Assembly: GCA_951406725.2 (NCBI GenBank)
Contig: OX597821.1
Location: 50,964,001-51,028,000 of the forward strand
Length of the DNA: 64,000 nucleotides
DNA from: Octopus vulgaris
Lineage: Eukaryota
Direction: 5' to 3'
Shown here in pieces: positions 1,365-57,660 of the stretch (positions are counted from its first letter, which is position 1; every line of letters begins with the position of its first letter). Position numbers and translations under genes: made by a program. The notes beneath the pieces were generated by a model. The model did no database searches. It was not told where the DNA came from and saw only the letters and a list, made by a program, of their open reading frames with translations.

Positions 1365-1845
1365 AGATAAGACAGTAAGGTGTGATTTGAGGGAGATTTG
1401 GCTGCTATTTCTACCAGGTCTAGCTGCCATGTAGGGGTCACCCTCATAGGCTCATACATACATATATACATAGATAAGACAGTAAGGTGTGATTTGGGGG
1501 AAATTTGGCTGCTATTTCTACCAGGTCTAGCTGCCATGTAGGGATCTCCCTCATAGGCTCATACATACATATATACATAGATAAGACAGTAAGGTGTGAT
1601 TTGGGGGAAATTTGGCTGCTATTTCTACCAGGTCTAGCTGCCATGTAGGGGTCTCCCTCATAGGCTCATACATACATATATACATAGATAAGACAGTAAG
1701 GTGTGATTTGGGGGAAATTTGGCTGCTATTTCTACCAGGTCTAGCTACCATGTAGAGGTCCCCCTCATTGGCTCATATATATATACATACATAAGACAGT
1801 AAGGTGTGATTTGAGGGAGATTTGGCTGCTGTTTCTACCAGGTCT
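1365..1845. repeat. 107-bp tandem repeat, about 4.5 units
   Basis: AGATAAGACAGTAAGGTGTGATTTG recurs at 1365, 1472, 1579, 1686 and about 1790; ORF track shows the same peptide at 107-bp offsets. Confidence 0.95.
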
Positions 1846-12285: not shown

Positions 12286-12620
12286 AAGGCGTCTGGCTCA
12301 GTGATTAGAGCGTCAAGCTTACGATCATGAAGTTTTCAGTTCGATTCCCGGACCGGGCTGCGTGTTGTGTTCTTGAGCAAGACACTTCATTTCACGTTGC
12401 TCCAGTTAACTCAACTGTAGAAATGAGTTGCGACATCACTGGTGCCAAGCTGTATCGGCCTTTGCTTTTCCCTTGGATAACATCAATAGTGCGGAGAGGG
12501 GAGGCTGGTATGCATGGGTGACTGCTGGCCTTCCACAAACAACCTTGCCCTGTCTTGTACATCGGAGGGTAACTTTCTAGGTGCAATCTCATAGTTATTC
12601 ATGACTGAAGAGGGTCTCCT
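12285..12620 (+). mobile_element. tRNA-derived SINE family C
   Basis: A box TGGCTCAGTGA, B box GTTCGATTCC; 3' part matches 48416-48587 on the opposite strand. Confidence 0.85.
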
Positions 12621-12722
12621 CCTCATGTATATATAATCATATATATATATATATATATATATATGATTATATATACATGAGGAGGAGACCCTCTTCAGTC
12701 ATGAATGACTATGAGATTGCAC
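12581..12722. repeat. Palindrome centred on (TA)n
   Basis: GTGCAATCTCATAG...GGTCTCCTCCTCATG mirrored by CATGAGGAGGAGACC...CTATGAGATTGCAC, one mismatch. Confidence 0.95.
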
Positions 12723-12998
12723 TGCTCGCTTAGCCAGCGGGGTGGTGTCATTCGAAGGCTAAAAAACAATGCGAACGCATTGTGACCAGCGATGTGTAAC
12801 AACATATGATGGTCTGGTCGGTCATGTGATCACGTGATATATATATATATATGTATGCGAAACAGGACAAAAAATGCCGAGGCAAAATATATATCAAAAA
12901 TACATATCGGCTATAGTGGAGCCCTGATAATCCGTTACACCACTTACCCAGCGTCCCTATTCGTTTACTTCACAAATGAATTAAGCGCCCATATTTTG

Positions 12999-13974: not shown

Positions 13975-14550
13975 GGTGCAGGCTTCTTAACCTCTTGGAT
14001 CCAGGTTCAGTCCCACTGCGTGGCACATTCGGCAAGTGTCTTCTTCTACTATAACCTCGGGCTAACCAAAGCCTTGTGAGTGGATTTGGTAGACAGAAAT
14101 TGAAAAAAAAGCGGCGAACTGGCAGAAACGTTAGCACGCCGGGCGAAATGCGTAGCCGTATTTCGTCTGTCGTTTCGTTGTGAGTTGAAATTCCGCCAAG
14201 GTCGACTTTGCCTTTTATTTTTTCGGGGTCGATTAAATAAGTACCAGTTACGCACTGGGGTCGATGTAATCGACTTAATCCGTTTGTCTGTCTTTGTTTT
14301 TCCCCTCTGTGTTTAGCCCCTTGTGGGTGGTAAAGAAATAGGTATTTTGTCTGTGTTTACGTTCTGAGTTCAAATTCCGCCGAGGTCGACTTTGCCTTTC
14401 ATCCTTTCACGGTCGATAAATTAAGTACCAGTTACGCACTGGAGTCGATCTAATCGACTTAATTCTTTTGTCTGTCCTTGTTTGTCCCCTCTATGTTTAG
14501 CCCCTTGTGGGCAATAAAGAAATAAGAAGCTGAAAATAGCACGTCGTATA
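13975..14550 (+). mobile_element. SINE family A fragment interrupted by a family B SINE
   Basis: Family A sequence to about 14110, resuming at about 14526 (GCTGAAAATAGCACGTCG). Confidence 0.7.
14111..14525 (+). mobile_element. SINE family B with tandemly duplicated body (about 184 bp)
   Basis: Head GCGGCGAACTGGCAGAAACG, B-box-like GAGTTCAAATTCC; body repeated at 14159-14342 and 14343-14525. Confidence 0.9.
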
Positions 14551-22904: not shown

Positions 22905-24400
22905 CTACATAATTTTACTTTACTAAAACGTTTTAGAAATTGATTTTTGGTGCATGAGAGAATTTGATGCCCCTGATCTCATTTGTACTTCCTGCTGTGA
23001 AGTTAGTTCATCCGGGACACTGGATGGTAAGAGGTCTACTTTGGTTTTGAAAGCACCTACATCCACCCCATGCAGGTCTTTCAGTTGCCTCGTAAGGATA
23101 TTGAAGAGCTGTGGTCCATTAAAGCCCAGGCTGTTGCAATACCTTGTCTTATAACTTGGTTGCACATTAGGAGTCTTTGGCACTATGCAGTGGCGCTCTT
23201 TTCTAGCTTTAGTGTAAATCTCGATGCCAAAGTTTGGGACTAGTCCCTCTAGGATCTTCCAGATGTATATTATGTCATATCTTTCTCGTCTACGCTCTAA
23301 GGAATAGAGTTTCAATCTCTTGAGTCTTTTCCAGTTGCTTATATGCTGCATACAGCCTATCCTTTTTTTGCAGCGTCTTTGGATTGCCTCAAGTTCTGCA
23401 AGTAATTTTACACTTGTTGGTTACCATAGCTGGAAGCAATAGTCAAAGCGACTTGGAACAAGTGTCTTCCAGAGGACCATCATGGTTTTCTTATCTCTCG
23501 TACTAAAAGTTCTAAGAATCCATCCAGTCAGCCGCCTGCATTTCATTGTCAAATTAACAACATGCACATGGGAGGATGCATCATTACTGGTGAAGTTGCA
23601 CAGATATCGAACTGACTGTGTCTCGGGAACTGCAATCTCTCCAGGTCCAGTGTATTGAATTGGTATTGTATTTAGTTTTGCATGCTGATTGAATAAGGAT
23701 TGAAGCTTTTCAGCATTAAAATGCATGTTGGTGTTCTCAGCTCACTTGTATATGTAATCCAACTCATGCTGTAGGTGCATGGCGTCTCCAGGGTTCTGTA
23801 CCACTTGTGAAACTTTTGTATGATATGCATATCTTGTGATCGTGCACTGTGTGTGGTTGAGGGCATGTCTCAGAGAGTCATTACGAACAGCAGTGGTTCC
23901 AAAACAGTGCCTTGCGGAACATCACTCACTACCCTTTCTATCCTTCAGAAAGTCATGCAGCCATTCTCCCAATTTCTCGAATATGCCGAGATTAAGCAGT
24001 TTGTGACACATCATTCCTTGATCGACTTTATCGCAGGCCTTTGCAAAGTCGAGATATATCACATCCACATTTGAATGGTTGAGCAGCTGTTTTAACACTC
24101 AGTCATAGTGTTGTAAGAGCCGATTCAAGCAGCTTCTTCCTGGTCGGAAACAATCTTGGTTGTCAGTGAGCAAGTCATTTTCCTCAAGGAAGGTGATTAA
24201 TTTTTTTCTGACTATTCGTTCCACGACTTTAGTGGTGTTCGATGTCAGAGAGATAGGTCTGTAATTTTTGGCTTCTGCTCTGCTACCTCCTTTATAAATA
24301 GGGAATAGTTTACCCTCCTCCAGCTTGCTTGGAAGTTTCCCATTTGCAAGGAAGCTCTGGAATGTATGTTTGCTTGCAGCCACACTTTCAGCCATTCACC
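22905..24400 (-). mobile_element. CR1/L2-group LINE ORF2 (reverse transcriptase) remnant
   Basis: KNYRPISLTS, FRPGRSCL, FNAEK, LKLYSLERRRERYDIIYIWKIL; frameshifted. Confidence 0.92.
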
Positions 24401-30849: not shown

Positions 30850-32370
30850 GTGAGTGATTCAAAGCAGTCACCTGGCTACATCAAGCACAATCAAGGAACC
30901 TTGCTCACCACTGTGCAATATCACCACGATCAACGGACACGGGATCGCTTCCCTTAACGCCTACACATTCCTCACACCAATATTTTTACTAAATATTGGG
31001 GGCCTGTTTCATCATAATAAAAGCAAAATTTCCTTCTTCAGAGACCTTGCTGCATGCAATCAAGCCTCATGCAGAGCAATCGGGGAAACTCACCTAAGCC
31101 CTGATATAGAGGAGTCAGAAGTACACGTACCAAAATATACCATACTGCGAACAGACAGAAGGGAAATAAGCCAACAAAAGCGAAATCGTTTTTCCTGACA
31201 GACCTTGCTGCATGCAATCAAGCCCTCTGCATAGCACTCGTGGAAACCCATCTAAGCCCTGATATAGAGGATGCTGAAGTACACTCTAATTGTATACATA
31301 AGGCAACACAATATAGTCATATGCAACACATATTTCCCACCGGATGATCCAAACCAAATTGGTAAGTTTGAAGATTGTCTAATAAGGATTAAAGAAATCC
31401 TCATGAAATTGGAACACCATGTGGGCGTATTTCTTATGGGTGATTTCAACTTCCCGAGGGGTTCTATTTTGCAGTACGCTGCAAAATAGGACCACTCTTC
31501 CAAAAGATGGCTCCCTCACAGATAGTCCAACCAGGATCAGTAAAGTACTGAATGACCAGTTCAAAAGTATCTTTACCACCCCGTTGGAACAGAGGCAAGT
31601 GAACGAACCAGTGGATTTCTTTGTCGCCTCACCTATAACCAGCGTGGCAGTTACGAAGATTTACATCGACATTAGCGAAGAAGATATACCACTAGCCATA
31701 GATGAGGTAGACGCAAACTCAGCTGCTGGTCCTGTTGTTTTCCCAGCAATCCTCCTCAAATCGTGTAAGCGTGCTATGGCGAAACCTCTACATATTCTCT
31801 TCTAGAGCTTTCTTGCAAATGGCAGGCTGCCAAGCAAATTGAAGGAGGGAAAATATGCCAAATCTATAAAGGAGGGAGCAGAGCGGATGCTGAAAACTAT
31901 ATGCCTATCTCTCTAACTTCACACATCAGCAAAGACATGGAACGGATACTCAGAAGGAAACTAATCACATTTCTTGAAGAAAATAGCTTGTTGAGTGATA
32001 TCCGGCATGGCCTTCGACCAGGTAGGAGTTGCTTGACCCAGCTCTTATAGCACTATGACTGGTGTTGAGGCAGTTACTCAACAACTCTAATGTGAACGTA
32101 ATATACCTTGACTTTGTAAAAGCTTTTGATAAAGTGGATCATGGTATGATATGCAACAAACTGCGTGATCTTGGTGTAGCTGGAAAACTTGGAGAGTGGT
32201 TGCATAACTTTTTGAAAGATAGAAGTCAGGCAGTAGTGGTCAATGGAGTCACCTAAAAAAAAACAAAAACCGTAAGCGGTGTTCCACAGGACACTGTCTT
32301 AGGATCACTGCTTTTCATAGTGGCCCTCTCAGATATGCCTTAAGCTGCCTGGATAGCCACCCTTGCTAGC
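30850..32370 (+). mobile_element. CR1/L2-group LINE ORF2 remnant (APE endonuclease plus RT)
   Basis: GETHL, RTDR, MGDFN (APE); YLDFVKAFDKVDH, SGVPQDTVLGSLLF (RT); same family as 22905-24400 in opposite orientation. Confidence 0.92.
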
Positions 32371-37006: not shown

Positions 37007-37618
37007 TTGTGCGCGCATGTTTTGTGTATACATGTTCGTATATAATCTGTATGTAAGGTATATATATATATATATATATAAATATACTATTTACCTACAA
37101 AATGAAGTTAACGATATTATCTGGAGTACATTATGAAACAGTTGATTCTTTTGCTTTTAACAACAATTTCTGCACAAAGACATAAACATGTATTATACAC
37201 ATACATATATGTATGTATATACATGTGTGTGTTTGTTTATATGTGAGTGTGTGTGTGTGTTTATGGATGTACGTATATACATACATATACATCTATAATA
37301 AAGATACGGATAGAAAAGAGAAAATCACAGTTTTAATCGTTGATTTCAACATACAAAGTCGACGGTTGTTTCTGTTGTATCGACACATTTAGTTACAGAA
37401 GATATCATTCAAATTAATATATCTCAAAACACATGTTAACATATTTGATATAATTAACCAAATTCATTTAAAACAACCCATCATTGATATATTCCTGGGC
37501 GTTCTAATCCCTTTTTTCAGCGTGTATTCATACATGCATGCATGCATACATAGGTACATTCCTACCTACCTACCTACCTACATACATACATACACATCAT
37601 TACATGTATATATTTAAA

Positions 37619-37659
<41 letters not shown>

Positions 37660-37782
37660 AATAGTAAAAAGTGAAAAAACTACAGAAGGCTTGTTTTAAA
37701 AGGTTAAAAAATATATATTTGAGTCATTATGTCTGAAGAATGTTATAAATTTTTTTTTTTTTCATACAATGACATAGCTTTG

Positions 37783-37822
37783 AAGAAATGACCGGTTTCG
37801 CGTTCAGCTTTTCAAATTTCTT
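37783..37822 (-). ncRNA. Minimal type I hammerhead-like motif, U3-A8 core variant
   Basis: Minus strand: AAGAAAT TTGAAAA GC tgaac GC GAAA CCGG TC ATTTCTT; perfect 7-bp stem I, palindromic loop III, GUC cleavage triplet. Confidence 0.65.
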
Positions 37823-37828
37823 ACATCG

Positions 37829-37865
<37 letters not shown>

Positions 37866-37994
37866 TGTATGTATGTATGTATGTATGTATGTATGTATGT
37901 ATATGAACACATAAAAATAGTTCCACACAAATTCATATTTTTACGTGCATGCGACTAAACACGCATACACAGACAAACTGATATCTATCTTTCA

Positions 37995-57039: not shown

Positions 57040-57660
57040 TTAACACGCCTAGTGTGTCGAAGTAATCTTCAGGGTCTGCGCATATTACCTGTACAATTTA
57101 CAAATCCGGACAATAGGGCAAGAAAAAACAAGACAAGAAAAGAGACGAAGGTGGATTCAAAAAGAAAGTGAAAAAGAAAGGAAAAAAGAAGAAAGATAAT
57201 TGGAGTTGTCTCCTTTGACAGTAAAGACATAAAGCCAGTTGGTGTCGAATCAACGGAAACGAGACTAAAATCTTCGAAACTACTAATCTCTTTTGAGAGA
57301 GTGGTTCTCTCCAGTTCGATAAAAGAAACTTGCCTGTATGTTTGCATTTGCTGAAACTTTATGATCTGGAATTCAAGAGTGCAGGGGAATTCTCTGATCT
57401 AAAAAGGATATGTGATCTTTCAGCTATGCGTATCTTGTATATTTTCGATCTATTAACATATAGTATAAATTTTTCTACGATTTGCCGATTGATTTTATGT
57501 GGCGTGGAGTTCGTCTTAAAATTCCATACGTGGCTGGCCAACTTAGTGTCTTTACTTTTGCACATGTACCGGAAAGAAGATAAGTGGCTAAGCATAGATT
57601 CTTTTGAAGAGCAACGTAAATGATACCATCTGGTTATACTAACCACCTATATCCTCAGAC
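57040..57660 (-). mobile_element. Penelope-like element 3' part (GIY-YIG C-terminus plus UTR)
   Basis: SHLSSFR...TKLASHVW...LLNSRS then FSKCKHTGKFLL; CTGAAGA box downstream at about 57066-57072. Confidence 0.8.

What the first reader, a model, noticed from the sequence alone, without database searches (positions are those of the whole stretch)
37783..37822. 40-nt U3-A8 hammerhead candidate with perfect stem I
Minus strand AAGAAAT-TTGAAAA-GC-tgaac-GC-GAAA-CCGG-TC-ATTTCTT has every element intact: 7-bp stem I, 2-bp stem II, self-complementary CCGG loop and GUC site. It lies in a roughly 175-bp unit (about 37655-37830) between (TA)n and (TATG)n. It is the best single candidate for an active ultra-minimal ribozyme here.
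Basis: partly seen in the sequence, partly recalled or inferred. Interest (0 to 1): 0.7.

Follow-up and report, generated by a model that had tools for sequence, protein, structure and literature searches.

The report
Penelope retrotransposon end-repeat hammerhead
The 40-base motif is real and sits in a 174-base scrap of a high-copy Penelope-type jumping gene; this U-A hammerhead type is already in print and is predicted to cut only when two copies pair, and a modest excess of genomic copies starting at the predicted cut site likely records some cutting in the animal.

Summary
The motif is exactly as described and above chance. It is a minimal type I hammerhead with a U3-A8 core in the pseudo-LTR of a Penelope-like retrotransposon (RT plus C-terminal GIY-YIG, Neptune/Nematis-type linker). 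The window holds only its 3'-terminal 174 bp, inserted in a (TA)n tract. The genome has 286 exact copies of the 40-mer. Across subfamilies 82-93% alike, the core is invariant (0 of 17 columns vary, against 82 of 191 flank columns), and one subfamily swaps a stem II pair compensatorily. U3-A8, 2-bp stem II and palindromic loop III are all published. 'Every element intact' overstates: stem III cannot close in a monomer, the fold is no better than shuffles, and 24 of 29 sister copies lack the seventh stem I pair. A double hammerhead is the predicted dimer optimum. This copy is solitary and was likely copied from uncut RNA. About 47 copies begin at the predicted cut, against 20 and 12 at two control sites: suggestive of in-vivo cleavage, not proof. 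The scan has noted this class, and cut-site starts, on other DNA. New member of a known kind.

The parts
37657..37830 (-). 3'-terminal 174 bp (pseudo-LTR, without the 42-nt tail) of a Penelope-like retrotransposon; 5'-truncated, no ORF
   Evidence: 94-97% identical to the best dispersed copies; matches the 5' and 3' pLTR of full-length copy L100 at 93%, and no other piece of the element is in the window
37816..37822 (-). Stem I, 5' strand (7 nt)
   Evidence: pair probabilities 0.4-0.75
37809..37815 (-). Core U3-U4-G5-A6-A7-A8-A9 (U3-A8 in place of C3-G8)
   Evidence: no variant shared by 4 or more of 65 copies
37800..37808 (-). Stem II, 2 bp (G10.1-C11.1, C10.2-G11.2), with a variable 5-nt loop
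   Evidence: C-G becomes U-A in 8 of 65 copies and is broken in 2 of 65
37791..37799 (-). G12-A13-A14 and the palindrome ACCGGU (A15.1 to U16.1), predicted to pair between two hammerheads
37789..37790 (-). Predicted scissile bond after C17 (GUC; GUA in sister subfamilies)
   Evidence: by hammerhead numbering; excess of copy 5' ends at this place
37783..37789 (-). Stem I, 3' strand (start of the predicted 3' product)
   Evidence: the first base is missing in 24 of 29 protein-chosen copies
37607..37656 (.). (TA)n tract at the element's 3' junction: the likely insertion target
   Evidence: nearly all of 100 sampled copies end in (TA)n or (TC)n(TA)n (read by eye)
37831..37902 (.). Short TA run and (TATG)n array at the 5' junction; 2-nt AT overlap with the element

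Best explanation
The motif is a minimal U3-A8 hammerhead carried in the terminal repeat of a (TA)n-flanked Penelope-like retrotransposon, predicted to cut only as a pair, and the window copy is a solitary, 5'-truncated and likely inert 174-bp end piece. SHOWN: the full element is about 4.0 kb (pLTR, ORF with RT, CX4CXXC linker and GIY-YIG, pLTR). The motif lies in both repeats, on the coding strand, about 195 nt upstream of the first ATG and downstream of the GIY-YIG domain. Its core is held constant while loop II and the flanks drift. PREDICTED: two motifs pair through ACCGGU into a double hammerhead that cuts after C17. INFERRED from the anole element: the element's own protein may assist folding, and cutting is partial and not needed for insertion. 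INFERRED for this copy: the endonuclease nicked a (TA)n tract, reverse transcription started at an element-internal TATATA (both observed 3' ends, 42 nt apart, fall at one), ran through the uncut motif and stopped 8 nt beyond stem I.
For: RT domain over the Pfam cut-off (RVT_1, E 2.3e-7) and GIY-YIG below its cut-off (E 0.003) in linked copies; 595 longer relatives at E<=1e-20, many with RT plus GIY-YIG, the named eukaryotic ones from molluscs. Direct pLTRs 3979 bp apart plus an inverted truncated copy in L100; two motifs 3468 bp apart in L192. 286 exact 40-mers, control 0; 1260 exact hits to a downstream 20-mer. Of 65 copies chosen without using the motif, 0 of 17 core and palindrome columns but 82 of 191 flank columns carry a variant shared by 4 or more copies (Fisher p 1e-4; columns are not independent and flank alignment is noisier). 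Lineage changes inside the motif mostly keep the structure: C-G to U-A in stem II, GUC to GUA, A-U to G-U at the end of stem I. Monomer stem III is impossible and the dimer MFE is the double hammerhead, also with the window's real flanks. Literature: PMC4209133, PMC3088659, PMC11167929, PMC8557442 and its preprint.
Against: No cleavage was measured. The covariation is one event in one lineage: 1 pair changed on both sides, which 422 of 500 shuffles also reach (8 hand-picked rows). The mean non-majority frequency of core against flank is not significantly lower (p 0.10). 24 of 29 protein-chosen copies lack A1.1, which leaves an extra U before U3, and insertions near position 3 impair cleavage in PMC3088659, yet those subfamilies spread. 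In the full pLTR context of L002 stem I is predicted not to form (P about 0). Another 18-nt box upstream is equally invariant, so invariance alone does not prove catalysis. Neptune versus Nematis was not resolved by a tree.
Confidence: 0.85

Rival explanations
1. The motif is a hammerhead-shaped but catalytically near-silent element, kept as a protein-binding, folding or promoter signal of the pLTR.
For: 56 of 100 sampled copies span the whole motif, so they came from RNA not cut there. Subfamilies lacking A1.1 proliferated. The monomer fold is weak. Anole PAc insertion in vitro did not need cleavage, and no RNA-seq ends were found at its site (PMC11167929).
Against: Variation follows hammerhead rules: it is free in loop II, keeps NUH at 17 and keeps the 10.2-11.2 pair. 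Copy 5' ends are in excess at the scissile position.
Confidence: 0.25
2. One reading: the 40-nt RNA is an efficient self-cleaving ultra-minimal monomer, and this locus is active.
For: All core bases are present. U3-A8 is reported active in vitro and 2-bp stem II is common in nature (PMC3088659 passages). Stem I is predicted at P about 0.6 in the window's own flanks.
Against: Stem III would need a 2-nt loop; with only A15.1-U16.1 closed the fold costs +3.5 kcal/mol. A Schistosoma minimal motif was inactive as a monomer. There is no partner copy and no ORF of the element in the window.
Confidence: 0.05
3. The unit is a non-autonomous tandem retrozyme or SINE-like repeat of its own.
For: Many copies are short, and true 358-362-bp tandem hammerhead repeats exist in this genome.
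Against: Copies share the 3' end and extend upstream by variable lengths into the RT/GIY-YIG ORF. There is no tandem array here, and the retrozyme-type loci show no blastn match to the full element at E<=1e-3.
Confidence: 0.02
4. Chance match to a loose descriptor in AT-rich DNA.
For: Folding z-score +0.75; no Rfam match.
Against: 0.01 expected per window; it sits where Penelope elements keep hammerheads; core invariance and a compensatory change.
Confidence: 0.02

Closest known systems
Minimal hammerheads (min-HHR) of metazoan Penelope-like elements, U3-A8 variant of Schistosoma mansoni Cercyon (Cervera and De la Pena 2014, PMC4209133; parts 1-2 of 4 read: results, discussion, start of methods; supplements and figures not seen)
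   Same: Type I, in pLTRs, U3-A8 core, G10.1-C11.1, palindromic 15.2-16.2 and loop 3, mostly single truncated copies, predicted dimer
   Different: There helix II is 7-8 bp with an unpaired base between 9 and 10.1 and helix I is 4-5 bp; here helix II is 2 bp with no extra base and helix I is 6-7 bp. The unseen supplementary alignments may hold a closer match.
Poseidon_Ac (PAc) hammerhead of the green anole (Frangieh et al. 2024, PMC11167929; parts 1-2 of 4 read)
   Same: Hammerhead in the pLTR, two reverse-transcription start points defining an optional tail, AT-rich targets
   Different: PAc has C3-G8, its ORF starts inside the ribozyme, and priming is reported as non-homologous to the target. 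Here the core is U3-A8, the ATG lies about 195 nt past the cut, and both 3' ends fall on an internal TATATA that matches the (TA)n target.
Neptune/Nematis EN+ Penelope-like elements (Craig et al. 2021, PMC8557442 and preprint; passages read)
   Same: C-terminal GIY-YIG with CCHH, CX2-5CXXC linker, DKG motif, inverted 5'-truncated partner, tail, microsatellite bias
   Different: Clade not fixed by a tree here; the tail is 42 nt against the 30-40 quoted
Natural U3-A8 hammerheads and 2-bp stem II (Perreault et al. 2011, PMC3088659; passages read)
   Same: U3-A8 covariation seen in nature and stated to be active in vitro; stem II often 2 bp; palindromic stem III suited to dimers
   Different: Those with short stem II are often braced by a pseudoknot; none was looked for systematically here
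Metazoan non-LTR retrozymes (PMC7229834 passages; bioRxiv 10.64898/2026.07.22.740005 part 1 and passages)
   Same: Type I hammerhead with short palindromic stem III, linked to Penelope pLTRs
   Different: Those are non-coding tandem units of 150-450 bp; this is the end of an autonomous coding element

Membership tests
Minimal type I hammerhead of metazoan PLEs | Core N3-U-G-A-N-N8-A ... G-A-A-A ... U-H with a 3-8 Watson-Crick pair | tested here: met
   U3-A8; invariant across subfamilies
Minimal type I hammerhead of metazoan PLEs | Helix I closing the core | tested here: met
   7 bp here; 6 bp plus an extra U in 24 of 29 protein-chosen copies
Minimal type I hammerhead of metazoan PLEs | Helix II with G10.1-C11.1 | tested here: met
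   2 bp; second pair C-G or U-A
Minimal type I hammerhead of metazoan PLEs | Palindromic 15.2-16.2 and loop 3 allowing a dimer | tested here: met
   ACCGGU; dimer MFE is the double hammerhead
Minimal type I hammerhead of metazoan PLEs | Location in the pLTRs of a PLE | tested here: met
Minimal type I hammerhead of metazoan PLEs | Common but not universal traits: long helix II (7-8 bp) and an unpaired base between 9 and 10.1 | tested here: not met
   helix II is 2 bp and follows A9 directly; traits from PMC4209133
Minimal type I hammerhead of metazoan PLEs | Site-specific self-cleavage | not testable with these tools
   only indirect: excess of copy 5' ends at the site
Canonical monomer-active hammerhead (Rfam Hammerhead_1) | Stem III closed within one molecule; covariance-model match | tested here: not met
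   2-nt loop disallowed; no hammerhead family at E<=10
Canonical monomer-active hammerhead (Rfam Hammerhead_1) | Loop I - loop II tertiary contact | not tested
   loop II varies among subfamilies; no contact was modelled
EN+ Penelope-like element, Neptune/Nematis type | One ORF with RT and C-terminal GIY-YIG | tested here: met
   RVT_1 over cut-off, GIY-YIG under cut-off; relatives carry both; open frames up to 869 aa ending in this domain
EN+ Penelope-like element, Neptune/Nematis type | CX2-5CXXC linker, two Cys between GIY and YIG, DKG motif | tested here: met
   read directly in the translations; definitions
EN+ Penelope-like element, Neptune/Nematis type | pLTRs, inverted 5'-truncated partner, optional tail | tested here: met
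   tail in 38 of 100 and absent in 62 of 100 by regex
EN+ Penelope-like element, Neptune/Nematis type | Placement in the Neptune or Nematis clade by RT phylogeny | not tested
   no named reference sequences were at hand
Non-LTR retrozyme | Non-coding tandem units of 150-450 bp, each with a hammerhead | tested here: not met
   single copy, continuous with a coding element

The most novel reading that the evidence does not exclude
The ribozyme cuts in the germ line, and the genome records it: roughly 5% of copies that reach this region begin at the first or second base of the predicted 3' product, about 2.4-4 times the rate at AT-matched control sites. That would be in-vivo evidence for cleavage by a Penelope hammerhead with a U3-A8 core and a 2-bp stem II, for which my searches turned up no report. 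A second strand: this family primes at two internal TATATA tracts homologous to its (TA)n target, unlike the non-homologous priming reported for PAc.
Probability: 0.5. Interest if true: 0.55.

Novelty: new member of a known kind. Interest (0 to 1): 0.27.

Why it matters
As a motif it is ordinary: Penelope pLTR hammerheads with U3-A8 are published and this genome has thousands of U3-A8 matches (3622 against 120 control). Its value is as test material for an open question, whether Penelope hammerheads cut in vivo and what for. The family offers natural variants (7-bp against 6-bp stem I, C-G against U-A in stem II, GUC against GUA), long open frames, and a measurable excess of copies starting at the cut.

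Tried and rejected
Rfam: whole-window scan, 150 of 314 rows shown, all under their gathering scores and none a hammerhead; local scan gave 2 chance hits. An Rfam Hammerhead_1 search of the genome scored only 73 of about 263,000 candidates and gave 6 matches, none at this locus; not used. Expression: no RNA holder listed. Four runs were laid, all contigs, which cannot show ends or strand; they show only that the family occurs in three of the coded organisms (A and B/C/D labels: X1, X15, X16, X17) and were not used for or against. Cut-site test on TA-flanked ends only: 9 of 26 against 5 of 30 distinct loci, counted by eye, not significant (Fisher p 0.11). In the 100-copy sample 7 rows mapped to +33/+34; 3 were dropped as alignment artefacts at inversion junctions, leaving 4 of 68. 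A search with the C-terminus of a 77%-identical relative found no separate family, only sister subfamilies, so covariation across distant families of this element was not obtained. A cis partner for the palindrome: the upstream invariant box holds pieces complementary to the palindrome and to stem I, but it has no GAA before the pairing A and is not predicted to pair; rejected as a half-ribozyme. Host gene: no convincing host ORF among 97 frames of 90 aa or more; short exons were not excluded. Alignment A1 had two wrong rows and was redone as A2. The host group was not determined: named relatives are molluscan, and my guess of a cephalopod is recalled, from no call.

Full report
Observation. 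A type I descriptor allowing C3-G8 or U3-A8 finds only this site in the window, and resampled windows give 0.01 such hits per 64 kb at stem I of 5 or more pairs. The 40-mer has no unusual folding energy (z +0.75) and Rfam does not recognise it.

What the unit is. A search of the own genome with 37657-37830 gave 1599 candidates; 40 were scored and gave 45 matches, the full-length ones 94-97% identical. The 40-mer occurs exactly 286 times (control 0) and a downstream 20-mer 1260 times. Copies share the 3' end and reach upstream by variable lengths into an ORF with a reverse transcriptase (RVT_1 E 2.3e-7, over cut-off), a CX4CXXC linker and a GIY-YIG domain (E 0.003, under cut-off). 595 longer relatives were found at E<=1e-20; the named eukaryotic ones among the 120 listed are molluscan. 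L100 shows the textbook layout: inverted truncated copy, 5' pLTR, first ATG about 195 nt after the predicted cut, ORF, 3' pLTR 3979 bp after the first. L192 has two whole motifs 3468 bp apart. These are the features of Neptune/Nematis-type Penelope-like elements in PMC8557442 and its preprint (passages); no tree was built. The window holds only the last 174 bp and no other piece of the element.

Insertion pattern. Of the first 100 of the 1260 anchor hits, 62 end like the window copy and 38 carry a further 42-nt tail (regex count). Both ends fall where the full element has an internal TATATA, and nearly all copies continue into (TA)n or (TC)n(TA)n. I infer priming by a nicked (TA)n target annealed to one of these two tracts. 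PMC11167929 explains tails by two internal start points but reports them as non-homologous to the target. The window copy has no tail and stops 8 nt upstream of stem I with a 2-nt AT overlap, so its template was likely uncut at this site.

Is the motif under constraint? Of 56 sampled copies spanning it, 19 equal the window's 40-mer. Among 65 copies chosen by a downstream anchor or by protein, and spanning subfamilies down to about 82% identity, 0 of 17 core and palindrome columns carry a variant shared by 4 or more copies, against 82 of 191 flank columns (p 1e-4; at 6 or more, 0 of 17 against 67 of 191, p 1e-3). The mean non-majority frequency, 0.03 against 0.14, is not significant by rank test (p 0.10). 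One subfamily has U-A for C-G at 10.2-11.2 together with A17 (8 of 65); 6 more have A17 with C-G; 2 break the pair. On 8 hand-picked haplotypes 95% of cells pair, against 39-55% with slid partners, but only one pair changes on both sides. Against: 24 of 29 protein-chosen copies lack A1.1, leaving 6 pairs and an extra U before U3 (my reading; two are ambiguous as to the missing base), so the 'perfect 7-bp stem I' is a subfamily trait. 2 of 65 have U3 with G8 and 2 have G3 with A8. An upstream 18-nt box is as invariant as the core.

Can it cut? In one molecule stem III needs a 2-nt loop, which the model forbids, and closing only A15.1-U16.1 costs +3.5 kcal/mol. Two molecules fold as a double hammerhead at -13.3 kcal/mol against -3.0 for each monomer, and likewise with the window's flanks. 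In the full pLTR of L002 stem I is predicted not to form. PMC4209133 reports about 1300 U3-A8 hits in Schistosoma, no cleavage of a monomeric minimal motif and low cleavage of dimers and trimers (parts 1-2 of 4; supplements not seen, and they may show a closer motif). PMC3088659 states that U3-A8 occurs naturally and is active in vitro, that stem II is often 2 bp, and that insertions near position 3 impair cleavage (passages). PMC11167929 found the anole motif cut only with protein present, and not needed for insertion.

Genomic marks of cutting. If cut RNA is sometimes copied, 5' ends should pile up at the first base after C17 (+33 from the motif start; +34 where A1.1 is missing). In the 100-copy sample 4 of 68 copies reaching this region begin there, after dropping 3 misaligned rows. 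That base starts an AT, which matches the target, so controls are needed. TA-flanked ends alone gave 9 of 26 against 5 of 30 at the same hexamer 20 nt downstream (p 0.11). A genome-wide pattern for ends at +33/+34 gave 70 rows. 30 were read as loci: 21 true 5' ends (17-18 separate events) and 9 intact copies with point changes. Of the other 40, 14 look intact from the four printed bases, so about 47 of 70 are true; this part was not verified on loci. The matched control gave 26 rows, all read, 20 true. With anchor rates of 46 and 52 per 100 the ratio is 2.7 (p 1e-4), or 2.4 (p 1e-3) on my rough count of separate events. A second control with longer TA overlap gave 12 true of 16 rows, with an anchor rate at least as high, about 4-fold lower by my arithmetic. 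Two control sites do not capture site-to-site spread, and stalling at the hairpin or template switching at the U-rich strand could give the same result. I rate in-vivo cleavage as the cause at about even odds. 56 of 100 copies span the whole motif, so most templates were not cut there.

What is known. The class, the U3-A8 pair, the short stem II and the dimer logic are in print. Searches (listings; papers read as stated above, plus passages of PMC7229834, PMC7151607 and bioRxiv 10.64898/2026.07.22.740005) found no account of this family or of cut-site 5' ends for Penelope elements; the library lacks most subscription papers. The scan's own notes hold 22 findings with these words in at least 11 genomes, several reporting cut-site starts; none matched this sequence. 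They are unchecked notes and not support.

Verdict. Real motif, known kind, inert-looking copy; modest indirect evidence that the family's ribozyme cuts in vivo. Interest 0.27.

Noticed in passing
G000, e.g. L041-L069 (C1:20002278-20004542), L183-L185: Separate 358-362-bp tandem repeats with canonical-size type I hammerheads (4-bp stem II). Closely related families differ by C3-G8 against U3-A8, and loop III is CCGG, CGCG or CTAG: retrozyme-like, with core covariation inside one genome.
   Followed up: partly
G000 whole genome: 3622 matches to a U3-A8 core pattern (control 120) against 111 to a C3-G8 pattern with fixed CCGG loop (control 5); the patterns differ in tightness, so the ratio is only indicative.
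   Followed up: partly
L002:1431-1448 (78-61 nt upstream of the motif; absent from the window copy): An 18-nt box invariant across subfamilies although non-coding in most copies. It resembles an ETS-type binding site (recalled, untested) and may be part of the pLTR promoter.
   Followed up: partly
L031:940-5777: A 4.8-kb palindrome in which both arms include about 430 bp of non-element flank beyond the (TA)n: a fold-back duplication or carry-over of flanking DNA.
   Followed up: no
L199/L200, L210-L212, L205: Junctions where element ORF sequence is joined in sense directly to the predicted 3' cleavage product; could reflect religated or template-switched RNA.
   Followed up: no
G000 rows (e.g. 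L271; C2:37914538, C27:31116443): Open frames of 780-869 aa ending in the GIY-YIG domain: some copies are young and near-intact.
   Followed up: no
3' junctions, (e.g. L113, L141, L164): Many copies have a (TC)n run between the element end and (TA)n, possibly slippage at priming or later repeat expansion.
   Followed up: no
window 22923-24395 (-) and 30854-32050 (+): Broken frames that read like LINE-type reverse transcriptase and endonuclease pieces (recognised by eye, not scanned).
   Followed up: no
window 57359-57646 (-): A 95-aa frame that looks like the end of a GIY-YIG domain of another Penelope-like family (recalled resemblance, not scanned).
   Followed up: no
window 12578-12725: A near-perfect inverted repeat with about 55-bp arms around a (TA)n centre, which drew sub-threshold microRNA matches.
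   Followed up: no
window 1365-1845 and 14158-14524: A 107-bp tandem array (4.5 copies, 95% match) and a 184-bp two-copy repeat that looks like a common SINE of this genome (SINE label recalled).
   Followed up: no
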